A stretch of 14,431 nt of DNA, from UHGV virus genome UHGV-1968440, one strand, 5' to 3'. Position 1 is the first letter of the stretch; each line of letters starts with the position of its first letter. This DNA is from a virus. Positions 1,011-14,428 of this stretch are shown one piece after another. The translations under genes and the position numbers were made by a program. Below the pieces are notes generated by a model, which was not told where the DNA came from, did not search any database, and saw only the letters and a program-made list of their open reading frames with translations.

Positions 1011-1988
1011 TTAAGCACCTCCTAGTGGATTAAACCTCACCGCATCCTGCAGGTAATCCGGCGCAAGATGGGCATAAATCATCGTTGTCTGAATCTTTGC
1101 GTGCCCCAGAATTTTCTGGAGCGTCAGAATATTGCCGCCGTTCATCATGAAATGACTGGCGAAGGTGTGGCGCAGCGCATGAACAGCCTGGCCGTCAGGA
1201 ACATCAGGTGCGACCGTTTTGATGACATCGCGAACCAATGAATAATCCAGCGTCGGAAACACCAGTTTCCCGCCCCGTTTTTTGATCTTTTCAAACAGGC
1301 TTTCAGAAATAGGAACGGTACGGTTTTTGCTGTTCTTCGTTTTTGAAAAAGTGATTCGACAATGAAGAACACGGCGCTGCTCCAGTGCCGCTACCTCGCC
1401 CCATTGCGCCCCGGTCGACAGAAGGATTTCGACAGCCAGCCGTTCATCGGGATTTTCAGCCAGTGCATCCAGCAACTGAACACATTCAGACTTACTCAGG
1501 TATCCCATTTCGCGCTCGTTAACCTTCATTCCTTTAAGGCCTTGAACGGGGTTATCGTTAAGAAAATGGCCGGATGAGATGAGTGCGGTAAACATCGCGC
1601 TTAACGCCCCAATCTCTCGATTTATGGTGCTGGGCTGTATCCCCTGCTCTATCCTGGACACACGTAGCTCGGTGAGCATCGTTGTATTAAGTTTATGCAC
1701 GCACGGGTCATCCATTGCCTCACTCAAGCGCAGCAATTTAAGGCGCGTGTTATGCCCTGACTTCATTAGCTGGCCGTGGTATTTCCACCACAAGTCAATA
1801 AGCACTGACAGCGGACGGCGATCAATAGAGTTTCCTTTCCACTCATTGTTATGCTGTTGCGCCAGCACCCACCGCTCATATAAAACTGCATCCGATTTCG
1901 TTTTAAATTTTTTACGAATGCGTTTGCCTTTACGCCCCTCCGGGCGTATGTCAAGAAGATACCCTCCCGGAATTGATTTTATGCTCAT
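1011..1988 (-). CDS. int: Tyrosine integrase, P2 Int-like
   Basis: Track ORF 1011..2138; likely start at internal M (MSIKSIPGGYLLDIRPEGRKGKRIRKKFKTKSDAV...) at 1986..1988, giving ~325 aa. C-terminal catalytic region HALRHTFASHFMMNGGNILTLQKILGHAKIQTTMIYAHLAP carries the R/H..H/Y signature of tyrosine recombinases. N-terminal segment resembles P2 integrase as I recall it. Confidence 0.9.
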   Translation of the reverse strand: MSIKSIPGGYLLDIRPEGRKGKRIRKKFKTKSDAVLYERWVLAQQHNNEWKGNSIDRRPLSVLIDLWWKYHGQLMKSGHNTRLKLLRLSEAMDDPCVHKLNTTMLTELRVSRIEQGIQPSTINREIGALSAMFTALISSGHFLNDNPVQGLKGMKVNEREMGYLSKSECVQLLDALAENPDERLAVEILLSTGAQWGEVAALEQRRVLHCRITFSKTKNSKNRTVPISESLFEKIKKRGGKLVFPTLDYSLVRDVIKTVAPDVPDGQAVHALRHTFASHFMMNGGNILTLQKILGHAKIQTTMIYAHLAPDYLQDAVRFNPLGGA

Positions 1989-2037
1989 TCGTGAAACCCC
2001 AGCGTTACAAGACCACCATGCCCCCAGCGCTCCATGA

Positions 2038-2346
2038 TTAGCCGGGCTGTGTGCCAGTCTTGCGGGGTTTTTGAGAAGGCGATGTGCTTTTTGGCCCATC
2101 AGGGGAGAGAGACGGACTGATCTGCCCAGCAGCCTCATTTGTTTTTCCCGTCATAAGCCAATTCATGTACTTAAAAAAGCGAGGGTGATTAACAATCTTG
2201 ATAAGCACTTCGCCCCCTATGTTTTCAATCCGCCCCGTTTCATAACGACGCAAAGTGCCGATAGGCACATCAATCAGGCCGCAAAATTCTTCGCGCGTTA
2301 AATCCTCTGATTCACGAATCACTCTAATTTTTTCACCGATAAGCAT
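2038..2346 (-). CDS. Immunity repressor, P2 C-type small HTH protein
   Basis: Track ORF 2038..2382; probable start at M13 (MLIGEKIRV..., ATG at 2344..2346). HTH-like segment LTREEFCGLIDVPIGTLRRYETGR. Sits between int and a divergently transcribed Cox-like gene, as in P2-like phages. Confidence 0.75.
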   Translation of the reverse strand: MLIGEKIRVIRESEDLTREEFCGLIDVPIGTLRRYETGRIENIGGEVLIKIVNHPRFFKYMNWLMTGKTNEAAGQISPSLSPDGPKSTSPSQKPRKTGTQPG

Positions 2347-2735: not shown

Positions 2736-3074
2736 ATGCTGAAGCAACGCCGTAATTTTCGTACCGGAACAGAACGCCACGCTAACCGTTTCACTACCAG
2801 TGCATCACGCAGCAACTCTCGCTACAGCCTGAGTGATACACACGCAACGCCGGATGGCTACCCAGTAAAACAAATCGGCGAGCACGCCTGGCTGATTGAG
2901 AAAGCTGGAATCGTGATCCACAAATGCCCACGCAATCCGTTTACCGGAAACCGCATTTTTGCATTGAGCTGTGGCGACAATCAGTTCGGGCAGGATTTCA
3001 CATTATACGAAGCACTTCGCACGGTTGATCGTCTGCTTCGCGGGCAAAGTTTTATTAAACAGGCTGATTTATAA
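2736..3074 (+). CDS. Hypothetical early protein
   Basis: 112-aa ORF; SD GAGGTG at 2724..2729, 6 nt before the ATG; begins 15 nt after the Cox-like stop. Confidence 0.6.
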   Translation: MLKQRRNFRTGTERHANRFTTSASRSNSRYSLSDTHATPDGYPVKQIGEHAWLIEKAGIVIHKCPRNPFTGNRIFALSCGDNQFGQDFTLYEALRTVDRLLRGQSFIKQADL

Positions 3075-3084
3075 CAGGCGCTTT

Positions 3085-3372
3085 ATGACCAAAGACCATG
3101 CACAAGGTGTATTTATCCGTTTTATTGATTTTCGCGGTGAACTGTTATTACGTGCATCCGCTATTGACGGAGTGACTCCGGCGGGTAAAAACGGAACCGA
3201 CGAAGCCACTTACGTTTATCTGAACGGCACGCGACTGCTTGTGGAACTTCCGTACCAGACCGTACGAGAAATCATTAGCGAAGCTGAAAAGGCACGCCAG
3301 GTTAATGCCGATGAACCCTATATCGAAATTATTTGTATGGATTCAGAAGCTGAAATACAGAAAGCAGATTAA
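3085..3372 (+). CDS. Hypothetical early protein
   Basis: Track ORF 2971..3372 overlaps the previous gene; in-frame ATG at 3085 (MTKDHAQGVF...) starts 11 nt after the upstream stop, giving ~95 aa. Confidence 0.5.
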   Translation: MTKDHAQGVFIRFIDFRGELLLRASAIDGVTPAGKNGTDEATYVYLNGTRLLVELPYQTVREIISEAEKARQVNADEPYIEIICMDSEAEIQKAD

Positions 3373-3383
3373 AGGGCGTTGTG

Positions 3384-3626
3384 ATGGGCAAAGAATATAA
3401 AACTCTCATTAACAAAGCACTTGAGCGTTTTTATTTTCGCTTAAGTGCATCAGGCGCTCATGCTGAACGTGCGGCCCGTGACTCATTGACCAGAGCAATC
3501 CGAAGTCTGTATGACGTGGCTTTTTACGCTGATGATCTGGATGCACTTAACGAACTTTCCGAGCTGATCTGTGCCGCAGAATGCGGGGAACATATTGAAC
3601 CGTATAAGTTGGGAAATATCGCATGA
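3384..3626 (+). CDS. Hypothetical early protein
   Basis: Track ORF 3381..3626; ATG at 3384 with AAAGGG 7 nt upstream; ~80 aa. Confidence 0.5.
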   Translation: MGKEYKTLINKALERFYFRLSASGAHAERAARDSLTRAIRSLYDVAFYADDLDALNELSELICAAECGEHIEPYKLGNIA

Positions 3627-3736
3627 GTATATTTATCTCATGGCTTGTTCTGATTATTTCGGTGGTCTGCGCCATTGGGATTATGCGAATTATTAATTCA
3701 GTGAAAAAGATCGAGCGTTTTTTCTCTGATGAATAA
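3623..3736 (+). CDS. Small hydrophobic membrane peptide (37 aa)
   Basis: Hand-translated (below the track size cutoff): MSIFISWLVLIISVVCAIGIMRIINSVKKIERFFSDE. ATG overlaps the upstream TGA (ATGA). One predicted transmembrane helix followed by a basic tail. Confidence 0.4.
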   Translation: MSIFISWLVLIISVVCAIGIMRIINSVKKIERFFSDE

Positions 3737-3828
3737 CGATACAAATAAAACATCAAATTAAATAAGAAAACGTGAAAACCATCCGTATTAATGGAGGTAT
3801 TCGCACGCGTAAATAACGGAGATATAAA

Positions 3829-4245
3829 ATGAAAGCAAAAGAAGAAGGCATTATCGACACATTTAAAAAAATATCAGAAGCGGAAGATGAAATGGCTAAA
3901 GATGCCGTGAAGCGTAGCCAACATATGGCAGCACTTCACGCACTGACCATTGCAAAAATCACCGCTGACGCAGCCAAAATTATTGAGGAACAGGGCAAAG
4001 AAATCGATACTCTTAAAACACAGTCAACAGTTGCAGCCATGAATCCGTCCAGCATTGGACGCCGCATTTACATTCTTGGTTCGGCAATAATGACGCAATA
4101 CACCATTATTGCCGAACTGCACGGCAAATACCTGATAACGCCTTACCACACAAAAGAGTCAGAGCTTCTGACAAATCTCCGCCTGATAGAACGCTCTCAA
4201 GCTGTATTCATTGATGACGCGCAACGTGCCGTATTTAACGCATAG
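3829..4245 (+). CDS. Hypothetical protein in an AT-rich segment (possible moron)
   Basis: 138-aa ORF; SD GGAG at 3818..3821, 7 nt before the ATG; preceded by a ~90-bp AT-rich stretch (3738..3828). Confidence 0.6.
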   Translation: MKAKEEGIIDTFKKISEAEDEMAKDAVKRSQHMAALHALTIAKITADAAKIIEEQGKEIDTLKTQSTVAAMNPSSIGRRIYILGSAIMTQYTIIAELHGKYLITPYHTKESELLTNLRLIERSQAVFIDDAQRAVFNA

Positions 4246-4268
4246 GGTTACTGGACAAAGGGGGCGCA

Positions 4269-4472
4269 ATGGCAATTAAGCATTTTCCCGTCGTTCGCTT
4301 TACCTCCAGAGGGCGCGAATACGAGGTCGACGAACGCCTGATTACCACTATCGACAAACATCGTTCGGAAAAGGATGCACACCACATCTACCTCACTGAC
4401 GGCACTTACTTCTGCGCCACCAACGTGGCGCGAGTAAATCTTATCCGACAGGTACAGGAGCCACGCAGATGA
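4269..4472 (+). CDS. Hypothetical small protein
   Basis: 67-aa ORF with G-rich SD before the ATG; its stop overlaps the next start (ATGA). Confidence 0.5.
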   Translation: MAIKHFPVVRFTSRGREYEVDERLITTIDKHRSEKDAHHIYLTDGTYFCATNVARVNLIRQVQEPRR

Positions 4473-4735
4473 CCATTCTGGACTACATCGCTACTCATCC
4501 GGGGTGTAGCGGCGGAGAGATCGCCGCAGCACTGAATACCCCAACCACAGCCATTAATGCTGAGTTACGCCGACTTTGGCGCGGCGGCTTAGTCATCAGA
4601 ACAAACCGCAGCACAGGTGGTCGCGCTCGCAAAACAGGAGGCCAGGCTTCTTACCACGTAAACCCGATGCCGTTCGGGTGTAGCAATCCACTTACTCACA
4701 TGTTTAACCAGCTACTGAAGGAAGCCAGAGCATGA
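4469..4735 (+). CDS. Small winged-helix-like DNA-binding protein, putative
   Basis: 88-aa ORF; SD AGGAG at 4456..4460; N-terminal MTILDYIATHPGCSGGEIAAALNTP resembles a winged-HTH recognition segment; ATGA overlap with both neighbours. Confidence 0.5.
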   Translation: MTILDYIATHPGCSGGEIAAALNTPTTAINAELRRLWRGGLVIRTNRSTGGRARKTGGQASYHVNPMPFGCSNPLTHMFNQLLKEARA

Positions 4736-5031
4736 GCACCATCAACCACCAGAAGCTACGCGAACTGGCATTTGCCCTGCAACGAATGGCAACGCCTCAA
4801 AAATTACTGGCATTTCGCGCAATGCTCTCGCCGTCTGCTGTGCTGGCACTGCTGAATGAGCTGGAGCACGCCAGAACCACGGCTCCTGCCATTCGCCTGA
4901 CGCTCCATCATGAAATCGCTGATTTCTGCGCGACGTTGGAGGCGCCGGGCGAACCGGAAACGCCGGAAGCAATACAGCAAGAGCTGCTGCAACGCATTGA
5001 CAAGGTTTTTGATTTTTTTCTGAACCAGTAA
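4732..5031 (+). CDS. Hypothetical early protein
   Basis: 99-aa ORF translationally coupled to the upstream gene (ATGA at 4732..4735). Confidence 0.5.
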   Translation: MSTINHQKLRELAFALQRMATPQKLLAFRAMLSPSAVLALLNELEHARTTAPAIRLTLHHEIADFCATLEAPGEPETPEAIQQELLQRIDKVFDFFLNQ

Positions 5032-5153
5032 GAAACCAGAACATGCACACACAAAAAAACCGCTTGCCATGCCGCAATCAGTCAGGTTACATTTCCGCTG
5101 CACCTCATAAAACGGGTGCCGGGATTTCCACCCCGCTGACAACCAAAGCGCAC

Positions 5154-5174
5154 AACCGCGCCAGCGGTTTTTTT
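5154..5174 (+). terminator. Candidate intrinsic terminator inside the early region
   Basis: Stem aaccgc/gcggtt with 4-nt loop followed by a run of seven T (5168..5174), ~120 bp after the stop at 5031. Confidence 0.45.
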
Positions 5175-5353
5175 GTGCGTACCGTATCGCCACGTCTTTT
5201 TCGCACACGAATTATGGTGGGGCGTACAGGGCCGACTTCGGTCGGGCCGGGTTCTTTGGTTGCCGGTTGTGGAAACCCTGTACGTCTCACCACCCCGAGT
5301 TTTCCACCTCTGGATGGTGAGTTTTCAAAACTTACAACCAAAGAGGCCACCCC

Positions 5354-5584
5354 ATGGCAAACCGCAAACAACAGCGCGCATACGCTGCGCGTCGTCACAT
5401 CCAGACTGAAATCAACCGCAGACTTTACCGCGCATCACGCGTCGCTCGTATCATGTTCATCAACATGTCACATGAGCACAGCCACGTGCTGTCAAACGCC
5501 TACTCCGCCGCAGTATTTAGCTATCTGGCGGATGATCTGCGCGAGCTTCAGCAGCTCATCGAGCAGCAAAACAAACCCCATTAA
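5354..5584 (+). CDS. Hypothetical small basic protein
   Basis: 76-aa ORF; SD AAGAGG at 5341..5346, 7 nt before the ATG. Confidence 0.55.
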   Translation: MANRKQQRAYAARRHIQTEINRRLYRASRVARIMFINMSHEHSHVLSNAYSAAVFSYLADDLRELQQLIEQQNKPH

Positions 5585-5656
5585 TTCCTGTTCCGGGCCT
5601 TTCCTGCACCTTGCGGCGGGAGGCCTTCGCACATCTGTAGTAAAGAGAATTGCAGC

Positions 5657-6046
5657 ATGATTGACGCTCATGACTTCACAAGATGGGTGCGCACACAGGA
5701 CACCCGTCTGGCTCCCGTTCTTCAGGGATTATTTGATCTCTACATCCGTGGTCGTGACAACAGAGCACGCACCACAAAACCGGAGAATGCAGACACCCTT
5801 TATTTCACAGTAGACGACTGCTACCGCGTGGACTTCACACCACACGGGCTGGCGTTGCACTGCCTGACACCACACGGAGAATCACTGCTGGCGTATTACG
5901 ACTCCCCGACCTCCGTATTTGCGGCAATGCTGGCGCATCGCACTGCTGGCGGGTGTGCCTCGCTGAGTGAATACACCGCTGAATTTAACCGCCTTTCTGC
6001 CCTCTTCTCGCAGGAGTGGCAGCGCGTGACGGGATACCAGCCATGA
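5657..6046 (+). CDS. Hypothetical protein translationally coupled to the replication initiator gene
   Basis: 129-aa ORF; its TGA (6044..6046) overlaps the ATG (6043..6045) of the downstream large gene. Confidence 0.6.
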   Translation: MIDAHDFTRWVRTQDTRLAPVLQGLFDLYIRGRDNRARTTKPENADTLYFTVDDCYRVDFTPHGLALHCLTPHGESLLAYYDSPTSVFAAMLAHRTAGGCASLSEYTAEFNRLSALFSQEWQRVTGYQP

Positions 6047-8883
6047 ATGAGTTTGCATGGAGCTGGAATGAACCACGGCCAGCCATTGATCCGGCCAGAT
6101 TTACGGAGCACAGGCAGGAAACTGAAACCGACCTGCAACGCGCCATCCGTTACTACCTTGAGGCAGACAAAAAGGCTCTGGAAGAACAGGAAGCGAAGGA
6201 GGAAGCCTTTTTCGCACAATCCACCGTGGGTAAAAAACTCATGGCATCCCTTGAGGAAGCCGGACAGCGTGAAAAGCTGGCACAAAGCATCATCAGCAAG
6301 CGTCAGGCAACAGAACAAGACCCGGTGGCCCGTGCTTTTGCCACACTGAAGGTGCTTCCCGTTTATCTGCGTAAACCTCTGAGCCGCCACCTCTCTTTCC
6401 TGCGCAAAAAACAGGAAGCCGATCGCCAGAAAGGCAAAAAGAGCTGGCAGGCTGAACGCTACGCGCGCGGAACCCTGCGCAAAATATTCGAACGCCTGGA
6501 CCGCACCGACCACCGCTGGCTGACACCGGGTTATCGCTCCCTTGCCGGACGCGAACGCCTGGATGATTTGCTTTACCTGCCGCAGCTCAACAAGCACCAG
6601 ATACAGACGCTGGCCACCATGACGGCGGCGATGTTCAGCAGCACCTTCGAAAAACTCTGCGATGGCTTTGGCGCGACCGATGGTGAGCTGACCATGGATG
6701 TAACGCTGAAGGCGTATCAGATGCTGGCCCGCATGGCGTTACACCTGCACGCCATGCCTCCACATTATGACGCACTGACAACAGACAAAGACCGGAGGAA
6801 CGAACCGGACACGGAGCTGCTGCCGGGCGCAACCCTTCGCCTGACCTGTGCGGAATGGTGGAAACGCAAACTGTGGCTGTTACGTTGCGAGTGGCGGGAA
6901 GAACAACTCCGCGCCGCCTGTCTGGTTTCCAGAAAAACATCACCCTATCTGAGCCAGGACGCGTTAAGCGAGTTTCGCGCACAGCGCGAGAAAACACGCG
7001 ATTTCCTGAAAAGTTTCATGCTGGAAAATGAAGACGGGTTCACGATTGATCTCGAGACGGTGTATTACGCGGGAGTAAGTAACCCGGTTCACCGTAAGGC
7101 AGAAATGATGGCCACCATGAAGGGGCTGGAACTTCTGGCCGAAGCCCGTGGCGACAGAGCGGTGTTTCTGACTGTCACCTGCCCGTCAAAATACCACGCA
7201 ACAACGGAGAACGGTCATCCGAATCCCAAATGGAACGGGGCCACAATGCGCGACTCCAGCGATTACCTGGTTAACACGTTTTTTGCGGCGGTCCGCAAAA
7301 AACTGAACCGCGACGGCCTGCGCTGGTATGGCATCCGCACGGTGGAGCCTCACCATGACGGCACTGTGCACTGGCATATGATGGTCTTTGCACATCCGGA
7401 CGAGATTGAAACCATCGTGTCCCACGTCTGCGATATTGCCATTCAGGAAGACCGCCACGAGCTGGGCGATGACATAACTCCGCGTTTTAAGGCGGAGTAC
7501 GTCGACGGCTCAAAAGGCACGCCAACCAGCTACATCGCCACCTACATCGGAAAGAACCTGGACAGCCGCGCCGTGGATGGCATCGACCCGAAAACGGGCA
7601 AGCCACGCGTTGACCACGAAACAGGTAAATCAATGGCCGAGAGCGTGGAGCGCGCCATCGGCTGGGCGCGCCTTCACCGGGTCCGTCAGTTCCAGTTCTT
7701 TGGCATCCCCTCCCGTCAGGTGTGGCGTGAACTGCGCCGCCTTGCCAGCCAGATGGCACGCAATCCGGAAGGCCCGCAACGGCTGAAGGATGACGCAATG
7801 GACGCGGTACTCGCTGCCGCTGATGCCGGATGTTTTGCCACCTACATTGAGAAACAGGGTGGCGTACTTGTTCCACGCAAAGACTACCTGATTCGCACCG
7901 CCTACGACCTCGCAGATGAGCTGAACGATTACGGTGAACAGAGCGTACAGATTTACGGGATCTGGTCGCCGCTCATTGGGGAGTCTTCCCGCGTATGCAC
8001 GCATCCGGATAACTGGAAGCTGGTAAGACGCAAACCGGAAGCGGAAGACAGCGCCCGCGAAAATGGTTTTGACCTTCAGGGCGGCCCTGCCGCCCCTTGG
8101 ACTCGTGGCAATAACTGTCCCCGTGTACAGGAAACAGGCAACAACGGGACAGAACAGCCGGAAGAACGGCCAGCACCGTGGCCGCAGCTTCCTGACGGCG
8201 TTGAAGTAAATGAATGGATGCGCTCACTGAAACGGCACGAACGCCGGGCGCTGATGCGTTCGCTTCGTGACAAACAGGCAAAAAACAGCAGCGATGAAAT
8301 GCAGAACTGGACACAGAGCCGCAAACAGCAGCGGCCTTTGCCTGATAACCACGAGTTACTCGCTAAAGAATGGCGGGAGTCTGCTGAATCTCTCGGCCTG
8401 CATATCGGTGAACAACAGATGCAGCACCTGTTACGGGGCGGCAGTCTGTACGTTGACGGCAGCATCATTGCACCGCAGGGATTTGAAATTGTACGCAAAC
8501 CGGATACCCGCCCGGACAGCCGAATCACGCAGCTCTGGCAGCGTCTGAGCCGTAATCATGGCGTAAGCAGCACGGAGATCCGCCATAACCCGGTCGCCAG
8601 CTATCTGGCACAGCTGGGGGCATCAGACCCTGAAGCCGCCGCACGCCTGGCATCCACACTTCAGCAGGACCAGAACACCATGAAAACACCCGTTACCGTG
8701 CTTTCTGACATGCTGCGCGCCATCCGCGACGCAGAGCACGCACAGAGAATCAGTGAAACCACTGAACGCGCCAGCCGCAAAGCAGACCTGCTGCGGGGTG
8801 GCCTGACCAGTGGAAACAAAAAACAGACAGAAACGGGACTCACGAATCCCGTAAATGAGCAAAAAACGCGCAGCGATATATGA
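6043..8883 (+). CDS. A: Rolling-circle replication initiator, P2 gpA-type HUH endonuclease
   Basis: Track ORF 6016..8883; likely start MNEFAWSW at 6043. HUH metal-binding motif VHWHMMVF (codons 7366..7389) and a paired-tyrosine motif YIATYIGKN (7531..7557), as in phiX174 gpA / P2 gpA-type initiators. Last large gene of the early operon. ~946 aa, longer than P2 gpA as I recall it (~760 aa). Confidence 0.85.
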   Translation: MNEFAWSWNEPRPAIDPARFTEHRQETETDLQRAIRYYLEADKKALEEQEAKEEAFFAQSTVGKKLMASLEEAGQREKLAQSIISKRQATEQDPVARAFATLKVLPVYLRKPLSRHLSFLRKKQEADRQKGKKSWQAERYARGTLRKIFERLDRTDHRWLTPGYRSLAGRERLDDLLYLPQLNKHQIQTLATMTAAMFSSTFEKLCDGFGATDGELTMDVTLKAYQMLARMALHLHAMPPHYDALTTDKDRRNEPDTELLPGATLRLTCAEWWKRKLWLLRCEWREEQLRAACLVSRKTSPYLSQDALSEFRAQREKTRDFLKSFMLENEDGFTIDLETVYYAGVSNPVHRKAEMMATMKGLELLAEARGDRAVFLTVTCPSKYHATTENGHPNPKWNGATMRDSSDYLVNTFFAAVRKKLNRDGLRWYGIRTVEPHHDGTVHWHMMVFAHPDEIETIVSHVCDIAIQEDRHELGDDITPRFKAEYVDGSKGTPTSYIATYIGKNLDSRAVDGIDPKTGKPRVDHETGKSMAESVERAIGWARLHRVRQFQFFGIPSRQVWRELRRLASQMARNPEGPQRLKDDAMDAVLAAADAGCFATYIEKQGGVLVPRKDYLIRTAYDLADELNDYGEQSVQIYGIWSPLIGESSRVCTHPDNWKLVRRKPEAEDSARENGFDLQGGPAAPWTRGNNCPRVQETGNNGTEQPEERPAPWPQLPDGVEVNEWMRSLKRHERRALMRSLRDKQAKNSSDEMQNWTQSRKQQRPLPDNHELLAKEWRESAESLGLHIGEQQMQHLLRGGSLYVDGSIIAPQGFEIVRKPDTRPDSRITQLWQRLSRNHGVSSTEIRHNPVASYLAQLGASDPEAAARLASTLQQDQNTMKTPVTVLSDMLRAIRDAEHAQRISETTERASRKADLLRGGLTSGNKKQTETGLTNPVNEQKTRSDI

Positions 8884-8928
8884 GGCGCGCACAAAACAGG
8901 CAAAAACGGGATTTCAGAATCCCGTAAA
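8821..8928. repeat. Two copies of a ~35-bp iterated dyad element (parC-like centromere/operator or ori-associated site)
   Basis: AAACAGRCARAAACGGGAYTYASGAATCCCGTAAA at 8821..8855 and 8893..8928; each copy contains the inverted pair ACGGGA/TCCCGT; spacing ~72 bp. Copy 1 lies inside the 3' end of the A gene, copy 2 in the parM upstream region. Confidence 0.6.
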
Positions 8929-8959
8929 CGATTAATTAATCAACATAAGGAAAACCGAC

Positions 8960-9919
8960 ATGAAAATTTACATCGACGACGGCTCCACCAACATCAAGCT
9001 GGCATGGACTGAGAACGGCGAACGCCGCAACGCCATCAGCCCGAACAGCTTCAAGTCGGAATGGTCTGCGCCGTTCGGTGGCTCGCAGCCTGCTAACTAC
9101 ATGCTTGATGGCGTGCGCTATGGTTTTGATCCGGTCAGCGATCGCTTTGTCCAGACGACCGACACGCAATACCAGTACAGCGATGTGAATGTCATTGCCA
9201 TTCATCACGCGCTGGTCAAATCAGACATCACGCCACAGGAAGTGGATGTGGTTGTTACCCTGCCACTGAGCGAATATTTCGACACAAACGCACAGCCGGA
9301 CATGGCCAACATCAACCGCAAAAAAGCGAACGTCATGCGCCCGGTGGAGTACCAGAACGGCGAAGCATTCACTATCCGTAACGTACGGGTTATGCCTGAA
9401 TCCATTCCGGCTGGCTTTAAAGCACTGGCTGACATGAGTCCGTTTGAATCCCTGCTGATTGTGGATTTGGGCGGAACCACGCTGGATGTGGCAAAGGTTC
9501 AGGGGCAACTGGCAGGTATCAGCCAGGTGTTTTGCGATCCACACGTAGGCGTTTCTCTTATGGCCGATGCCGTACTGTCGGTGATGGCCACTAACGGTAT
9601 GCGCACCAGTCACCACATCGCCAATACCATTATCGAACATCGCCATAATGAAGCCTGGCTGCGCCAGCACATCCACAATGACGCGCATTACGCCAGCCTG
9701 ATGGCGGTTATTCGTGAAAAGGAAGAAACACTGAAACAACGCGTGATCCGCGCGCTGGCGGTTTTTTCGGGTTACGGGCGGGTGATGGTTGTCGGTGGCG
9801 GGGCGGAGATTGTGGCACCCGCTATCCGCGAAGCCTGCGGAGTTAATGCGACTTTCATCGCGGACGGGGTGCCACAGTTTGCTCTGGTTAATGGGCTGTA
9901 CGCAATGGACAAGGAGTAA
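8960..9919 (+). CDS. parM: ParM/StbA-like actin-type segregation ATPase
   Basis: 319-aa ORF. N-terminal MKIYIDDGSTNIKLAW, then SPNSFK, YSDVNV, HHAL, MPESIPAGF, DLGGTTLDV, GVSL, VVGGGAE and LVNGLYAM match, in order, the motifs I recall from plasmid R1 ParM (actin/ASKHA fold). SD-like AGGA 8 nt upstream of the ATG. Confidence 0.85.
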   Translation: MKIYIDDGSTNIKLAWTENGERRNAISPNSFKSEWSAPFGGSQPANYMLDGVRYGFDPVSDRFVQTTDTQYQYSDVNVIAIHHALVKSDITPQEVDVVVTLPLSEYFDTNAQPDMANINRKKANVMRPVEYQNGEAFTIRNVRVMPESIPAGFKALADMSPFESLLIVDLGGTTLDVAKVQGQLAGISQVFCDPHVGVSLMADAVLSVMATNGMRTSHHIANTIIEHRHNEAWLRQHIHNDAHYASLMAVIREKEETLKQRVIRALAVFSGYGRVMVVGGGAEIVAPAIREACGVNATFIADGVPQFALVNGLYAMDKE

Positions 9920-9923
9920 ACCA

Positions 9924-10235
9924 ATGACGACACCAACCAGACGGATAAGTTTCTATCTGAAGCCCGCCGCCGTCAAGAACGAAGGAGAAGCATGCGCCTG
10001 GCTGGACAGCCTTACACCAGAAGCCCGCAAAAGCGGCCAACGCGTGGCTTTTCTGGCCGGGCTGGCACTTCTGAAGACGAATCCGGCAGAGGCTTACCGA
10101 CTGGCCGCATGGGCTGATGATGAGATGTTACCTGTGACACAAATCAGCTCAAAAAAGTTTGAAGCACAGTCTGCACCAGTGGCTAAGATAACCAGCCAGA
10201 TGGCTGGGAATATCCGGGCGTTATTTCCTGAGTAA
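9924..10235 (+). CDS. parR: ParR/StbB-like centromere-binding adaptor
   Basis: Track ORF 9789..10235 is an upstream-extended version; ATG at 9924 has SD AAGGAG (9911..9916) and follows the parM stop by 4 nt. Translation MTTPTRRISFYLKPAAVKNEGEACAWLDSLTPEARKSGQRVAFLAGLALL parallels the N-terminal region of R1 ParR as recalled (RTIAFKLNP...LDSIPQGERSRLNRAALTAGLAL). Confidence 0.75.
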   Translation: MTTPTRRISFYLKPAAVKNEGEACAWLDSLTPEARKSGQRVAFLAGLALLKTNPAEAYRLAAWADDEMLPVTQISSKKFEAQSAPVAKITSQMAGNIRALFPE

Positions 10236-10355
10236 AAGCATCTGCGCGAAAAATGCTCACGTTTATAGAGACAGTATCATTCCATTTGGCACACTTACTT
10301 CAATAATCGATCTGTTAAACAAATAGATTGTCTATTATCTATCGATTAAAACGAT

Positions 10356-10420
10356 CAATTATCTTGACAGTAATGTGCCTTTTTGTAAGATCGTTCGCAT
10401 TGTGAGCGACAAGATAATTG
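10356..10420 (+). promoter_or_regulatory. Sigma70-like promoter bracketed by 11-bp inverted repeats (operator-controlled promoter)
   Basis: TTGACA at 10364..10369, 16-bp spacer, TAAGAT at 10386..10391. Flanked by CAATTATCTTG (10356..10366) and its inverse CAAGATAATTG (10410..10420). A 15-bp palindrome AATAGATTGTCTATT (10322..10336) lies just upstream. Confidence 0.5.
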
Positions 10421-10441
10421 CGCGGCATTGTCCATGCAAAA

Positions 10442-10469
10442 CGCCCCAATAGCAGCAACTATTGGGGCG
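10442..10469. other. Perfect 11-bp stem hairpin in the leader of the 89-aa gene
   Basis: cgccccaatag / ctattggggcg with 6-nt loop. On the minus strand it is followed by TTTTG, so it could act as a leftward terminator or as an RNA/DNA structural element. Confidence 0.45.
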
Positions 10470-10599
10470 TAAAACTCGGTCGGGCTCACTTAACCTGATA
10501 TGCGTGCCTTCCGAAGTAAATCAAAATGTGCGTCGTATATTTTATTGCTTACACGCACCTCTGTAAAGGCACGCATATTTTTCCTATGAGGTAAATAAA

Positions 10600-10869
10600 G
10601 TGCGGGCTAAAACAGGTATTTGCAAGAACCCTCATCGTTATAATCCAACATTTCTGTCTCTCCCTGAATATCAAGGACAAGAAGGTCGGCACAAATGCGC
10701 TGCCTGTGCTTTTGAGCTAGGCATAAAAGATGCGCTTGAAGGACGCGCTATGGCTCAGAATGATTTAGTTTTAGCTAACATTCCGTTTAGCCAGGCTGGA
10801 ACTGTAAGGCACAGAGATGCCTATGAAGCATATGTTCGTGGTTGGCGATTAATAAACAGCAACAATTGA
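10600..10869 (+). CDS. Hypothetical small Cys/His-containing protein (accessory island cargo)
   Basis: 89-aa ORF with GTG start; SD GAGGT at 10588..10592. Residues C8, H12, C34, C37 (CKNPH ... HKCAACAF) could form a small metal-binding site. Followed by a clear intrinsic terminator. Confidence 0.5.
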   Translation: MRAKTGICKNPHRYNPTFLSLPEYQGQEGRHKCAACAFELGIKDALEGRAMAQNDLVLANIPFSQAGTVRHRDAYEAYVRGWRLINSNN

Positions 10870-10877
10870 TACTTTTG

Positions 10878-10901
10878 AAGCGCCGATAAGGCGCTTTTTT
10901 T
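10878..10901 (+). terminator. Rho-independent terminator after the 89-aa gene
   Basis: Stem aagcgcc/ggcgctt with loop gataa, followed by TTTTT (10897..10901); starts 9 nt after the stop codon. Confidence 0.7.
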
Positions 10902-11294
10902 GTTTGCACGATAGTGCACAAGTTTGCACAATTTTTTTGAACGACTTTTTGTACTTCCGGCCCGCGTGGTGGCTGGATCCGTCAAGGATCCGTACGTGCA
11001 CAAAAAAACGCGTTTTTTCTGCGCGCAGGTGACGGGGGAACAGCCCGCGTTTCAGGGGGTAAATAGCATTCCCTGAACGATGTCGCAGAGACACAACAGA
11101 ATGGCCATATTTCTCACGCTGAGCATGAAAAAGGCGTGAGGGCTTTTGATTTGATGGGGTGAAAGGTAAGGCCGTCAAAATCGCACTGAGGCAGCGAGAA
11201 CATACAGTCAACGCGGTGGAATTGCGTAAGAGTCTGACCGTCGATGGTGGCGATAAACTGGAAGGCGTCGTGAAATTATCTGATTGATACAGGA

Positions 11295-11339
11295 GCTGCT
11301 TCGCCGGGGCATAAATTTTTTATGCCCCGGCGAAGCAGC
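11295..11339. repeat. Perfect 21-bp inverted repeat (45-bp palindrome)
   Basis: gctgcttcgccggggcataaa / tttatgccccggcgaagcagc around a 3-nt centre; GC-rich arms with an AT-rich centre; no flanking T-tract on either strand; ~90 bp upstream of the 174-aa gene. Confidence 0.7.
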
Positions 11340-11430
11340 AGACAAGCGAAGCGCGTCAGCGATACGGCACCTTGCCGACCATACTTCATAAGTGCAAAAT
11401 ACGAGCAAAGAAATCAATGGAGGCTGTCTT

Positions 11431-11955
11431 ATGGTCATTAATTACAAGCAGTTAAGAGAAAAACGGGAGCAGGTAAAGGAGAGCTTTCGCCGCAATGAAG
11501 ATCTGACCCCGCTTGTACGCCTTGCCCAGGGCATTGTTGATGCTTATGAAATCTCGCTGGAGCTGCCATCACAGACCTGGACAGATAGCGACGGTAATCG
11601 CCAGCATTACGTTTCATGCGGACTGGAAGCAGCCGAAGGATTTCGCAGAATGCCTTTATCCCAGATCCCTGCCGCTACCCCCAAAGCACGGGGCAGCAAT
11701 GATGAGCGAAAACTGACTTTTAGTATTGAAACGGTGGTTGACGACACACCTGGCGAAGTCGCGTTCGTGCACACGCCTGTTTCGATCGCAATGTATAACG
11801 ATGAAATACAGGTTCGCGTTAATAATAATATCGTGCCACTTAAAGAAGGTAATTCACCCTACACCACCGTTTGTGAAGCCATTCAATATTACGTTCTCTC
11901 TGAAATTGATAATCTCAAGCCTGACGGCACCCAGAAAATGGTTCAACTCTGGTAA
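11431..11955 (+). CDS. Hypothetical protein (orphan cargo gene adjacent to the portal gene)
   Basis: Track ORF 11392..11955; ATG at 11431 with SD GGAGG (11419..11423) at 7 nt; ~174 aa; no motif I can recognise; convergent with the portal gene. Confidence 0.6.
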   Translation: MVINYKQLREKREQVKESFRRNEDLTPLVRLAQGIVDAYEISLELPSQTWTDSDGNRQHYVSCGLEAAEGFRRMPLSQIPAATPKARGSNDERKLTFSIETVVDDTPGEVAFVHTPVSIAMYNDEIQVRVNNNIVPLKEGNSPYTTVCEAIQYYVLSEIDNLKPDGTQKMVQLW

Positions 11956-11961
11956 AAAGGA

Positions 11962-11986
11962 CAGCCCCATCACGGGGCTGTTTTTT
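11962..11986. terminator. Bidirectional intrinsic terminator between convergent genes
   Basis: Stem cagcccc/ggggctg (11962..11980) followed by TTTTTT on the plus strand and by CCTTTTTAC on the minus strand; overlaps the last codons of the portal gene. Confidence 0.7.
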
Positions 11987-13016
11987 CATCAAGAAGAGCA
12001 TAAGAGTTAAAACGGATCACCTCTTCGCCAAGCCAGTCATTGATGTGCTTCATAGCCTCCATGACGGGCATCAGCTCGTTAATTGCGTAAACCCGCGCTG
12101 CCTTCTCCACATCGCCAAACGCACTTTTTTCGCCCGGCATCGCCCCCATCAGTTGCGGCGGAACGCGGTGCGCAGCCAGCACATCATCACGGGATGCCGC
12201 CTTAACATTCATGAATTCATCTTTTGCGGTGATCTGCTGGAACGGCAAAATTTGCACCCCCTCTTTGCCCCCGTTGGGCGCATGAATGAGCACGTTTTTA
12301 AACGCACCACCACCACGTGCCCCCTGTAGCGTTTCTTTCAGGGAGTCCATGCTTTCGCGGTTTACCTGCGCTGCACCGATGTAGATGATGCACCCGGCGT
12401 GGGATCCGTTGTCGTAGTACAGTTTTCTGAACATGTCCGCCGAATGAGAAAGGCTGGCCGAGAGTAATGCGCCAAGATATTCCGGCATGCCGTAGATTTC
12501 CTGGTTAATATCCGGATTCATCAGGTGGCACACTTTGCCAGGACGAAACTGAAACGCGTCCTTGCCATCCTGCACATACCACCATGATTCAAGATCGCTT
12601 CCGCGTCGCATGTATTTCGCCAGGGCGTGCCGTAATTTAAGCGGTTCGCCGAGCATATTGCTTCGAAGCTCAAGGAATGCGTTACCGAACACAAACCAGT
12701 CCAGCGCCAGCGCCGAGAAATCCTGCCGGGAAAGCAGCGGGTGCGGGATGTAGCAACCGAGTAATACATTGCGCTTAAAGTAAAGCGCAGACTGATGCCA
12801 GGACGTTTGCCGGGCTGCTCTTGCCAGACCGTACCAGTCCACCGGGGTTTCATACCACCGCCCGTTATCAGCACAGTACATATTGTCCAGCAGGTCATGC
12901 CCGGTCAGGCGATAAGGACCATCAAATGTGAATGCACTGAGCGATGATTCTTTCCTGAGCGCATCAGCGAGATCAATGCGTGAACTCATGCGCACTTTTT
13001 TATTTTTTCTGCTCAT
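11970..13016 (-). CDS. Q: Portal protein, P2 gpQ-like
   Basis: 348-aa ORF beginning MSRKNKKVRMSS; segments GRWYETP, LESWWYVQ, HLMNPDINQEIYGMPEYL, YYDNGSHAG, SRDDVLAAHRVPPQLMG, GDVEKAARVY and NDWLGEEVIRFN resemble P2 gpQ as I recall it. Start overlaps the stop of the upstream terminase gene (ATGA at 13014..13018). Confidence 0.8.
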   Translation of the reverse strand: MSRKNKKVRMSSRIDLADALRKESSLSAFTFDGPYRLTGHDLLDNMYCADNGRWYETPVDWYGLARAARQTSWHQSALYFKRNVLLGCYIPHPLLSRQDFSALALDWFVFGNAFLELRSNMLGEPLKLRHALAKYMRRGSDLESWWYVQDGKDAFQFRPGKVCHLMNPDINQEIYGMPEYLGALLSASLSHSADMFRKLYYDNGSHAGCIIYIGAAQVNRESMDSLKETLQGARGGGAFKNVLIHAPNGGKEGVQILPFQQITAKDEFMNVKAASRDDVLAAHRVPPQLMGAMPGEKSAFGDVEKAARVYAINELMPVMEAMKHINDWLGEEVIRFNSYALLDEKTAP

Positions 13017-14428
13017 CAGAACTCCATAACCGTGAAACGCTCGTTTTCTCCTTCGCCGCCAATTGGTTCGTTAATGACAGCAAGCATGGTTGCCCACGCA
13101 AGGTCGCCGTGGCTGATCCCCCTCGCGCGGTCCGTTTCGTAAGTGATAAAGCCGCCCGGTGTTTTCACCTTACGCACGGCGTTAAAGGCTGCGACCAGCT
13201 CGCGTTCGGCGCGATCGTATTCCCACCGCCCGGCACGCATTATTTGCAGCATTTTCAGTACCAGCGACCGTTTTGATGACAGCGTGAAGGTGTACGGAAT
13301 AGCAGCAGGGAAAAACCGTTTCACTATCTGATAAACAGCCTCCCCGTTCCCGCCTGTCACATCAATGCCGATGTGTTCCACGTTGTAGCGACACGTGAAC
13401 TCTTCAATGACTCTGGCCTGTTCTTCAAACTCCAGCCCCTGAACGCGTCGCGTCTCCACCGTTCGAAAACGGCCGCCAGGAACAGCCGGAGGAACCACCA
13501 CGGACACAGCGCCGCTGTCGCCGTTTCCACTGCTGCCGTTTGCGTCATACCCAATCCATACCGGACGATTCCCCATCGGGCGGGGAGCAAAAGGTTTCCA
13601 GTCTTTCCAGTCGTCGTATCCGTCAACACCACAGCCAATCAGGATATTCAGGTTAAATGCCGATTCCCCTTCGCGGACAAACTCACACATATAGAGATTG
13701 AGGAACTCGTCTTCGGTGTTTTCATCACGAATTTCATCAATATCGGTGTGTTTCCAGCCGTGATTAACCACATCTTCCAGCGTGACAATTTGCCGCCACG
13801 TCCGGTCAGGGCAGATAAGCCCGTTATGCAGCGTTTTCCAGTCCACAGAAAAACGCTGGCGTTTATGCGAGGCCTTTTTCTCGTTCCAGCGGTCGCCGTT
13901 CCAGTAGGCGTATGCCTCGTGCGTTTCGGTGGATGGCGTGGAGAAGTAGGTGCGCCGCAGTCCGCTGAGGGTTGCCATAGCGCCAGCCACCTTGCGCAGT
14001 TCAGCAAAGCGACTGACCCAGAAAAATTCATCAAAATAAAAATTGCCCGTGTAGGACTGTGCCGTCGCAGCAGAAGTACCAAGAAAATGCAGCTCTGCGC
14101 CGTTGGAGAGGATGATTTTATCGCCCCCTTTCAGCTCCACATCAACTTCAGATGCAGCCTCCTGAATAATGCTTTTAAACTGGAACGCCTGACGACGCGA
14201 CGCAGACAAAAAAATCTGGTTACGCTGGTAAGGTTGCGCCACATCGTCACGCAGCGCCATCAGCAGTGCTTCCTGAGCAAAATACCAGGTCGCCCCAATC
14301 TGTCGGGATTTCAGGACCATCCTGTTACGTATCCCGGCTTCCCTGCAAAGGGTCCTGTCTCTTATACACAAATCCCCACCCGGGGATTTGTGATGTCTGT
14401 CAGTCTGCTTTAGGGGGACTCTTTCCAT
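13016..14428 (-). CDS. P: Terminase large (ATPase) subunit, P2 gpP-like; 5' boundary uncertain
   Basis: 470-aa track ORF in-frame to within 3 nt of the window edge. Walker-A-like KSRQIGAT near the N-terminal end of the recognisable region and a Walker-B-like hydrophobic-DE segment (NFYFDEFFWV). The first ~36 track residues translate a hairpin / IS-end-like sequence and look non-protein-like, so the true start is either the Met at about 14318..14320 or lies beyond the window. Confidence 0.75.
   Translation of the reverse strand: MERVPLKQTDRHHKSPGGDLCIRDRTLCREAGIRNRMVLKSRQIGATWYFAQEALLMALRDDVAQPYQRNQIFLSASRRQAFQFKSIIQEAASEVDVELKGGDKIILSNGAELHFLGTSAATAQSYTGNFYFDEFFWVSRFAELRKVAGAMATLSGLRRTYFSTPSTETHEAYAYWNGDRWNEKKASHKRQRFSVDWKTLHNGLICPDRTWRQIVTLEDVVNHGWKHTDIDEIRDENTEDEFLNLYMCEFVREGESAFNLNILIGCGVDGYDDWKDWKPFAPRPMGNRPVWIGYDANGSSGNGDSGAVSVVVPPAVPGGRFRTVETRRVQGLEFEEQARVIEEFTCRYNVEHIGIDVTGGNGEAVYQIVKRFFPAAIPYTFTLSSKRSLVLKMLQIMRAGRWEYDRAERELVAAFNAVRKVKTPGGFITYETDRARGISHGDLAWATMLAVINEPIGGEGENERFTVMEF

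What the first reader, a model, noticed from the sequence alone, without database searches (positions are those of the whole stretch)
6043..8883. Replication initiator with a long C-terminal extension
The HUH and paired-tyrosine motifs sit around residues 440-500 of a ~946-aa protein, leaving roughly 450 residues after the catalytic core. The C-terminal portion is charged and Gln/Arg/Glu-rich (for example KQAKNSSDEMQNWTQSRKQQRPLPDNHELLAKEWRE) and the gene ends inside the first iteron. From memory P2 gpA is ~760 aa, so this looks like an extended or fused variant, possibly with an added domain that links replication to the downstream partition module.
Basis: inference. Interest (0 to 1): 0.35.

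Follow-up and report, generated by a model that had tools for sequence, protein, structure and literature searches.

The report
Long P88-type phage replication initiator gpA
This is the ordinary replication-starting enzyme of a common P2-family prophage of E. coli. Its extra length is a short lineage-specific helical tail, whose last part simply reads through the control region of the neighbouring partition genes.

Summary
The ORF 6043-8883 (946 aa) is real and is the gpA rolling-circle initiator (PF05840) of a P88-like (Xuanwuvirus) P2-family prophage. The HUH motif is at H443-W-H445 and the tyrosine pair at Y497/Y501. RefSeq already annotates the same 946-aa protein as "replication endonuclease". 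This stretch of the gene, up to the parM start, is in about 1300 of 5426 complete E. coli genomes.

The protein is 185 aa longer than P2 gpA (761 aa). About 47 aa are gained before the tyrosines, 19 between the tyrosines and the origin-encoded peptide, and 119 after it. The true C-terminal add-on is about residues 821-946 and has three layers:
- **821-880:** a helical module conserved as protein, also found in long gpAs of phages without parMR.
- **881-919:** one predicted long helix with dN/dS about 0.9.
- **920-946:** a disordered tail that translates the first parC-like repeat. Its frame and stop differ between relatives.

No known domain or fold matches the add-on. A functional link to partition is not supported, because a 910-aa variant keeps 807-907 with no parMR downstream.

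By-product: the replication origin lies inside the gene (8089-8126) and marks a recombination boundary, so the part of gpA after it is exchanged as a block, in one case together with parMR.

Ordinary, low interest.

The parts
6043..8883 (+). gpA gene, 946-aa HUH rolling-circle replication initiator of a P88-like (Xuanwuvirus) prophage
   Evidence: PF05840 at 430 bits over residues 185-509; PHROG 91 'nicking at origin of replication' over 2-946. 91 % identical to P88 gp16. RefSeq CDS of the same length.
6043..6372 (+). Residues 1-110: variable, mosaic N-terminal helical segment, about 60 aa of it absent from P2 gpA
   Evidence: 24-27 % against 93 % identity among proteins that are 96-98 % identical in the catalytic core. 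Helices 30-92 in the model. Gap in P2.
7369..7377 (+). HUH motif H443-W-H445
   Evidence: Invariant in alignments A1, A2 and A5; position computed.
7531..7545 (+). Active-site tyrosine pair Y497-x3-Y501
   Evidence: Invariant; aligns with P2 Y450/Y454.
8041..8178 (+). Residues 667-712: predicted disordered linker that encodes the origin
   Evidence: pLDDT below 50. Synonymous divergence against Hafnia is 0.15 here and 0.64-0.75 in the flanks, with dN/dS 0.85, so the DNA is constrained rather than the protein.
8089..8126 (+). Origin core GCCGCCCCTTGGACTCGTGGCAATAACTGTCCCC..., with the predicted gpA nick near 8099 by homology with P2; also a recombination boundary
   Evidence: Aligns with the annotated P2 nick site. 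Identical in gpA genes that are otherwise 57-76 % aa identical. The junction of L011 starts at 8091, and divergence in L006 and L004 begins right after the core. Partial E. coli hits end at 8126.
8350..8502 (+). Residues 770-820: small alpha/beta domain (two helices plus a beta-hairpin); sequence conservation across gpAs, including P2, is shown only for its first part (~772-806)
   Evidence: pLDDT 80-88. LLRGG-type motif aligned with P2 and the 186-like gpA.
8503..8682 (+). Residues 821-880: add-on module 1, a four-helix segment with the motif D-x-R-I-T-x-[IL]-W-x-R-[LM]-x-x-N-H-G-x4-I-R-[HY]-N-P-x2-x-Y
   Evidence: Helices 823-877, pLDDT 64-74. Conserved at 32-40 % identity in the 872-879-aa forms, Hafnia and a distant 841-aa gpA, with a weaker motif match in SI7. 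pN/pS about 0.44-0.54.
8683..8799 (+). Residues 881-919: add-on module 2, one predicted long helix
   Evidence: Helix 883-919, pLDDT 52-75. Seen only in the P88-like and Hafnia lineages. pN 0.34 against pS 0.37 versus Hafnia; that pS is like parM (0.42), not like the gpA core.
8767..8767 (.). Cargo boundary: nucleotide identity with the 910-aa variant locus (no parMR) ends here, at codon ~908
8800..8883 (+). Residues 920-946 plus stop: disordered tail that translates the first parC-like repeat
   Evidence: pLDDT below 50. Three different tails and stop positions on conserved DNA in the window, L011 and L010.
8817..8858 (.). parC-like repeat 1 (palindrome 8835-8850)
8890..8931 (.). parC-like repeat 2 (palindrome 8908-8923)
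   Evidence: The same two repeats with 73-nt spacing occur in Hafnia L010.
8960..9919 (+). parM (actin-like segregation ATPase)
   Evidence: PF06406 and PF21523.
9924..10235 (+). parR/stbB-type centromere-binding protein
   Evidence: PF10784.

Best explanation
The gene encodes the standard gpA-type HUH rolling-circle initiator of a P88-like P2-family prophage.

**Mechanism, by homology with P2.** gpA nicks its own origin, which lies inside its own coding sequence at about 8099. It uses Y497/Y501 and primes leading-strand synthesis.

**Where the extra length comes from.** The protein is a mosaic:
- a variable N-terminal helical segment (1-110);
- a conserved catalytic core (about 111-666);
- a disordered linker that encodes the origin (667-712);
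- a C-terminal block that is exchanged by recombination at the origin.

**The C-terminal block.** Residues 770-820 form a small domain whose start (~772-806) is conserved in other gpAs including P2. Three add-on layers follow:
- **821-880** is a genuine accessory protein module found in several long-gpA lineages. I infer that it makes protein-protein contacts (self-association, or recruitment of a replication partner) rather than taking part in catalysis.
- **881-919** is a weakly constrained or unconstrained helix.
- **920-946** is an incidental translation of the leading edge of the parC-parMR cassette, which sits in the known gpA-gpQ cargo hotspot.

The overlap with the partition locus is a by-product of where cargo cassettes join the 3' end of gpA. 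It is not a functional fusion.

**Shown:** identity, motifs, mosaic structure, cassette boundary and selection pattern. **Inferred:** the nick position, the role of the repeats as parC, and the role of 821-880.
For: - **Family and motifs:**
- **P88-like context:** integrase, early operon, parMR, portal and terminase.
- **Same 946-aa CDS in RefSeq.** The 3' end of the gene up to the parM start is in 1300 of 5426 complete E. coli genomes, almost always on the chromosome. A cluster at 98 % identity has 16,881 members.
- **Mosaic structure.** Per-segment identities are discordant. P0123/L011 has a core 56 % identical but a post-origin part 97-99 % identical, with 95 % nucleotide identity starting at 8091. 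P0071 is 94 % identical in the core and 25 % after the origin.
- **Origin.** The core is identical across lineages and homologous to the annotated P2 nick site. Partial hits end at 8126. Synonymous divergence is low there.
- **Add-on layers:** structure models; pN/pS by segment; tails in different frames.
- **Independence from parMR:**
- **Hotspot.** The gpA-gpQ interval is a described cargo hotspot (PMC9122126).
Against: - Every parMR-bearing locus I saw also carries module 881-919 directly upstream of parC (window, P88-like phages, Hafnia L010, L011). A function tied to the cassette is therefore not excluded.
- The 910-aa variant is a close relative (95 % nucleotide identity) that probably lost parMR recently, so it is weak as independent evidence.
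- The dN/dS for 881-919 rests on 37 codons.
- The models of the add-on have only moderate confidence (pLDDT 52-75) from shallow alignments of 16-26 sequences.
- No experiment on any long gpA was found in the searchable literature.
Confidence: 0.75

Rival explanations
1. The C-terminal add-on is a functional adaptor that couples the initiator to the ParMR partition machine. For example, it would tether gpA, which is covalently bound to the displaced 5' end, or newly replicated circles to ParR/parC.
For: The gpA 3' end overlaps the first parC-like repeat. All parMR-bearing gpA loci seen have module 881-919. The gpA post-origin part and parMR moved together into a 186-like backbone (L011). Synonymous divergence of 881-919 matches parM rather than the gpA core.
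Against: Co-transfer is explained by adjacency. Module 821-880 occurs without parMR. The 910-aa variant keeps 807-907 without parMR. dN/dS is about 0.9 for 881-919. The tail frame and stop are not conserved, and the tail is predicted to be disordered. There is no fold or sequence relation to any partition protein.
Confidence: 0.1
2. The whole add-on (821-946) is dispensable read-through. It would have been created by repeated cassette insertions at the 3' end of gpA and have no function as protein.
For: P2 and 186-like gpAs work without it (lengths). The post-origin region is hypervariable. 881-946 shows little protein-level constraint. Only 16 hits were found among 1.84 billion representatives.
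Against: Module 821-880 keeps invariant D, W, H, I-R, P and Y positions at 32-40 % identity across distant lineages, with a weaker match to the same motif in a different genus, SI7. It shows pN well below a saturated pS. It is predicted as a packed helical segment.
Confidence: 0.13
3. Artefact. Two genes were joined by a sequencing or assembly error, or a stop codon was lost in one strain.
For: None found.
Against: The same continuous ORF occurs in published phage genomes (P88 and 13 other records), in RefSeq and in about 1300 complete genomes. The 59 %-identical Hafnia orthologue has the same architecture.
Confidence: 0.02

Closest known systems
Bacteriophage P2 gpA (NP_046795, 761 aa), the cis-acting HUH/two-tyrosine rolling-circle initiator with its origin inside its own gene
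   Same: Same Pfam family. The HUH motif and the Y-x3-Y pair align (P2 Y450/Y454). An origin-like sequence occupies the homologous place in the gene, and the C-terminal LLRGG-type motif is shared.
   Different: 32 % identity overall. The window protein has about 47 more residues before the tyrosines, 19 more between the tyrosines and the origin peptide, and 119 more after it. P2 lacks modules 821-880 and 881-919, and has old/tin rather than parMR downstream.
Escherichia phage P88 gp16 'replication endonuclease' (YP_009113059, 940 aa; genus Xuanwuvirus)
   Same: 91 % identical overall, and 98-99 % identical from residue 111 to 906. Same add-on, same parC repeats, same parM/parR downstream.
   Different: Different N-terminal ~110 residues (the P88-type allele is only 24-27 % identical there) and a few substitutions in the tail.
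Long gpA of Salmonella phage SI7 (Irrigatiovirus, 878 aa) and the 872-879-aa E. coli/Shigella/Salmonella forms
   Same: They end with a homologue of module 821-880.
   Different: No module 881-919, no parC tail and no parMR downstream.
R1/NR1 parMRC (stbAB) type II plasmid partition locus
   Same: ParM (PF06406/PF21523) and ParR/StbB (PF10784), with repeated sites directly upstream of parM.
   Different: Two 16-bp palindromes 73 bp apart, instead of the ten 11-bp repeats I recall for R1 parC (from memory, not tested). The locus is chromosomal, inside an integrated prophage, and its first repeat lies within the coding sequence of the upstream gene.

Membership tests
gpA / Phage_GPA (PF05840) HUH rolling-circle initiators | Profile match above the curated cut-off | tested here: met
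   430.3 bits against a cut-off of 31.4, residues 185-509 covering profile positions 1-321 of 321. PHROG 91 E = 6e-275.
gpA / Phage_GPA (PF05840) HUH rolling-circle initiators | HUH metal-binding motif | tested here: met
   H443-W-H445, invariant in 26 sequences.
gpA / Phage_GPA (PF05840) HUH rolling-circle initiators | Two active-site tyrosines spaced Y-x3-Y | tested here: met
   Y497 and Y501 align with P2 Y450 and Y454.
gpA / Phage_GPA (PF05840) HUH rolling-circle initiators | Origin or nick site located within the gene itself | tested here: met
   By sequence homology only: 8089-8120 aligns with the annotated P2 nick site, with 7 substitutions in 32 nt. Actual nicking cannot be tested here.
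gpA / Phage_GPA (PF05840) HUH rolling-circle initiators | HUH-nuclease fold | tested here: inconclusive
   The full-length model (pLDDT 69) gives AAV Rep origin-binding/nuclease domains as its best PDB matches, but only at E about 0.04.
P2-family (Peduoviridae) prophage early region | Integrase, C-type repressor, early operon, gpA, cargo, then portal and terminase on the opposite strand | tested here: met
Fusion of gpA with a known independent domain | The add-on matches a family or fold that also exists outside gpA | tested here: not met
   No Pfam, NCBIfam or PDB sequence hit. Foldseek best E = 0.58 in PDB and 0.047 in BFVD. Credible HMMER hits are gpA C-termini or short unnamed fragments near-identical to this region.
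Type II (ParMRC) partition locus | Actin-like ParM plus ParR adaptor genes in tandem | tested here: met
   PF06406 and PF21523; PF10784.
Type II (ParMRC) partition locus | Repeated centromere sites (parC) upstream of parM that bind ParR | tested here: inconclusive
   Two conserved palindromic repeats lie upstream, keep the same spacing in Hafnia, and travel with parMR. ParR binding cannot be tested here.
Replication iterons (initiator-binding repeats of theta replicons) | Repeats belong to the replication module and accompany the rep gene | tested here: not met
   The repeats are absent from L008/L009, which carry a 95 %-identical gpA but no parMR. They follow parMR into a different gpA backbone (L011).

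The most novel reading that the evidence does not exclude
The gpA nick site (8089-8126) is itself a recombination hotspot. It would set the left border of the P2 gpA-gpQ cargo hotspot inside gpA, so each cargo swap can also swap the initiator's C-terminal third. On this reading module 881-919 and the tail belong to the parMR cassette and have a cis or protein role in coupling rolling-circle products to segregation.
Probability: 0.15. Interest if true: 0.55.

Novelty: already known. Interest (0 to 1): 0.2.

Why it matters
The finding itself matters little. The protein is the usual initiator of a prophage carried by about a quarter of complete E. coli genomes, and it is already annotated at this length.

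Two side results could be useful:
- **Survey borders.** gpA is used as a fixed 'core' flank when surveying the P2 defence/cargo hotspot. Its last third, from the origin onward, is itself mosaic and travels with the cargo, which affects how hotspot borders and gpA phylogenies should be drawn.
- **A testable overlap.** The 3' end of a replication gene reads through a centromere-like site. This gives a simple system for testing whether ParR binding interferes with expression of the upstream gene.

Tried and rejected
- **Domain and fold searches.** Pfam, NCBIfam and PDB sequence searches found nothing in the add-on. Foldseek of the 765-946 model against PDB and BFVD gave nothing below E = 0.047.
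- **Exhaustive HMMER with residues 807-946.** There were 16 hits. The long multi-stretch ones (P0143, a cadherin-like repeat protein; P0146; P0151) I judged compositional or repeat noise after reading P0143 and P0146; P0151 was not read.
- **Profile search with the module-1 alignment.** It returned only fragments of the same E. coli proteins, because the word index limits its reach.
- **P0022.** A DUF4761 protein ending in 35 residues of the add-on looks like a deletion chimera, not an independent occurrence.
- **Promoter scan.** No consensus sigma-70 promoter was found upstream of parM. By eye, a TGAACA-16-TATAAG element lies between the repeats in Hafnia, with a weaker TGAGCA-15-TATATG in the window. 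I treat this as tentative.
- **Plasmid search.** True plasmid parM genes match only inside parM at 66 % identity, so the origin of the DNA upstream of parM could not be traced.
- **Literature.** Nothing on the long gpA or on origin-associated breakpoints. One search was badly framed and returned irrelevant papers.
- **Phage-plasmid idea.** I rejected the idea that the element is a phage-plasmid: 1532 of 1534 places in complete E. coli genomes are chromosomal.
Full report
**What is there**

The window is a P2-family prophage segment. It holds, in order:
- a tyrosine integrase at 1011-2138 (-);
- an HTH repressor;
- a rightward early operon;
- the long ORF 6043-8883;
- parM (8960-9919) and a parR/stbB-type gene (9924-10235);
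- portal and large terminase on the minus strand.

Megablast places it in the P88 group (genus Xuanwuvirus, Peduoviridae) at about 95 % identity over 2757-14354.

The ORF is 946 codons. Its ATG overlaps the stop of the upstream ORF as ATGA. RefSeq annotates an identical-length CDS, "replication endonuclease" WP_001001609.1, in E. coli O157:H7 FRIK944, followed by ParM and a partition/stability protein.

**Checking the observation**

- Pfam Phage_GPA matches residues 185-509 at 430 bits.
- The HUH motif is H443-W-H445 and the tyrosine pair is Y497/Y501. They align with P2 H399-W-H401 and Y450/Y454.
- 445 residues follow the second tyrosine, but P2 (761 aa) already has 307 and a 186-like gpA (802 aa) has 295.
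- The quoted peptide begins at residue 744. Residues 693-806 are Q/R/E-enriched but not more charged overall than the core.
- Two 42-nt repeats lie at 8817-8858 and 8890-8931, each with a GGGAYT-N4-AATCCC palindrome. The first is entirely inside the gene. The stop at 8881-8883 lies between the repeats.

The observation therefore stands, with that small correction.

**Where the extra length is**

Relative to P2 the protein gains about 47 aa before the tyrosines, 19 aa between the tyrosines and the conserved NNC peptide, and 119 aa after that peptide.

P2 and 186-like gpAs align up to about residue 806, at the motif LLRGGSLYVDG.

Two AlphaFold2 models were made, the full-length protein at pLDDT 69 and residues 765-946 at pLDDT 68. 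They give this picture:

| Residues | Prediction | pLDDT |
|---|---|---|
| up to ~665 | well-predicted core | mostly 70-90 |
| 667-712 | disordered linker | below 50 |
| 770-820 | small alpha/beta domain; its first part (~772-806) is shared with other gpAs | 80-88 |
| 823-877 | four helices | 64-74 |
| 883-919 | one long helix | 52-75 |
| 921-946 | disordered tail | below 50 |

The real add-on is therefore about 821-946.

**What the add-on is**

It has no Pfam, NCBIfam or PDB relative and no Foldseek match. In an exhaustive HMMER scan of 1.84 billion representatives, only 16 proteins score E < 0.001. The credible ones are gpA C-termini, or short unnamed fragments near-identical to this region.

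It splits into three layers.

*Residues 821-880.* These are conserved at 32-40 % identity, with invariant D, W, H, I-R, P and Y positions, in:
- the 872-879-aa E. coli/Shigella/Salmonella forms;
- a 59 %-identical Hafnia gpA;
- a distant 841-aa gpA.

The 878-aa gpA of Salmonella phage SI7 (Irrigatiovirus) ends in a weaker match to the same motif.

Non-synonymous divergence is well below a saturated synonymous divergence: pN 0.34 against pS 0.79 versus Hafnia, and 0.37 against 0.68 versus the 879-aa form. This layer is a real protein module.

*Residues 881-919.* These occur only in the P88-like and Hafnia lineages. pN is 0.34 and pS is 0.37 (dN/dS about 0.9, 37 codons). That pS resembles parM (0.42) rather than the gpA core (0.64-0.75).

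*Residues 920-946.* These are the translation of parC-like repeat 1. The same DNA gives three different tails:
- ...GNKKQTETGLTNPVNEQKTRSDI* in the window;
- ...GNKNRQKRDSQIP* in L011, where one A fewer shifts the frame and the stop falls at the end of the palindrome;
- ...NNKQKRDS* in Hafnia, where the stop falls in the centre of the palindrome.

Here the DNA is conserved and the peptide is not.

**Is the add-on tied to the partition genes?**

| gpA form | Add-on present | Downstream cargo |
|---|---|---|
| P0059, 879 aa | module 1 only | Fic/Phd-type cargo |
| P0071, 830 aa (CP-933T type) | none | no parMR |
| SI7, 878 aa | module 1 | no parMR |
| P0040, 910 aa | 807-907 | unrelated reverse-strand genes |
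| Hafnia L010 | full add-on | parMR |
| L011 | full add-on | parMR |

For P0040, nucleotide identity with the window stops at 8767, which is codon 908.

In complete E. coli genomes, 1300 carry the junction with parM. About 70 further genomes match only part of the query, and the one listed covers only 8461-8767. In the phage collection, ParM occurs only in Xuanwuvirus and, distantly, in phage D6.

The perfect co-occurrence among phage records therefore reflects one clonal lineage. Module 1 is independent of parMR. The last ~40 codons belong physically to the parMR block.

A functional replication-partition adaptor is not supported. For 881-946 it cannot be strictly excluded.

**The origin as a module boundary (by-product)**

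- The annotated P2 nick site (GCGCCTCGG/AGTCCTGTCAATAACTGTGG) aligns with window 8089-8120.
- The core GCGCCCCTTGGACTCGTGGCAATAACTGTCCCC is identical in P88-like, Hafnia and 186-like gpA genes whose proteins are only 57-76 % identical. Divergence starts immediately 3' of it in L003, L004 and L006.
- L011 has 186-like early genes and a 186-like gpA core (56 % identity). From 8091 onward it is 95 % identical to the window, through parMR.
- Partial megablast hits in E. coli genomes end at 8122-8126, or consist only of 8077-8126.
- Synonymous divergence falls to 0.15 in codons 667-712, and the model places these codons in a disordered linker.
- The gpA-gpQ interval is a described cargo/defence hotspot (PMC9122126). 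The two hotspot papers that I term-searched treat gpA as a fixed flank and mention no breakpoint inside it.

**Mechanism**

Shown:
- family membership, catalytic motifs and an origin-like core inside the gene;
- mosaic N- and C-terminal parts;
- the cassette boundary at about 8767;
- the selection pattern by segment.

Inferred from P2 biology:
- gpA nicks near 8099 and acts in rolling-circle initiation;
- the two palindromic repeats are ParR sites (parC);
- a weak promoter may lie between the repeats. The Hafnia sequence reads TGAACA-16-TATAAG by eye, but the consensus scan found none in the window.

My best guess for 821-880 is an accessory protein-contact module. I hold this with low confidence.

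**Verdict**

This is an ordinary, already annotated P88-type gpA. The "added domain linking replication to partition" is not supported.

Noticed in passing
window 8089-8126: Origin core inside gpA. It is identical across gpA genes that are otherwise 57-76 % aa identical and is homologous to the annotated P2 nick site. Recombination junctions and the ends of partial database hits cluster at its 3' edge. Synonymous divergence drops to 0.15 in the surrounding codons, which the model places in a disordered linker.
   Followed up: yes
window 8817-8931; L010 6714-6828; L011 ~6745-6860: Two 42-nt repeats with GGGAYT-N4-AATCCC palindromes, always 73 nt apart, upstream of parM. They are probably parC, with a possible promoter between them. 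The gpA stop codon falls at three different places or frames relative to the first palindrome in three lineages.
   Followed up: partly
window 5100-5174 and 5210-5297 (+): Rfam matches above gathering score to isrK (64 bits) and C4 antisense RNA (82 bits). Both lie inside the ORF 5043-5660, which has an Ash-family match. This looks like a P1/P7-type c4-antirepressor immunity cassette in the early operon of a P2-like phage.
   Followed up: no
window 6043-6372 (gpA residues 1-110): A second mosaic segment in gpA. Two N-terminal allele types are only 24-27 % identical to each other, in proteins that are 96-98 % identical in the catalytic core.
   Followed up: partly
window 10236-11960: Variable stretch between parR and the portal gene, with small ORFs (10600-10869 +, 10849-11211 -, 11208-11438 -) that have no Pfam or PADLOC match. 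Related phages differ here: the P884B11 match (H53/H54) ends at 10235 and the 500465-2 match (H55/H56) begins at 10773. A perfect 12-nt hairpin lies at 10441-10470 and a 13-nt inverted repeat at 10498-10578.
   Followed up: no
PLSDB record NZ_CP148288.1 (34,461 bp, E. coli) and NZ_CP049283.1 (26,762 bp, Shigella boydii): Records deposited as plasmids that are about the size of a P88-like phage genome and carry gpA-parMR at 93-96 % identity. They could be excised or replicating phage circles caught in an assembly, or occasional plasmid-like carriage. In complete E. coli genomes 1532 of 1534 places are chromosomal.
   Followed up: no
protein P0022 (101 aa, DUF4761): A DUF4761 early protein that ends in 35 residues of the gpA add-on (…RPDSRITQLWQRLSRNHGVSSTE…). 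This is probably a deletion chimera in a decayed prophage.
   Followed up: no
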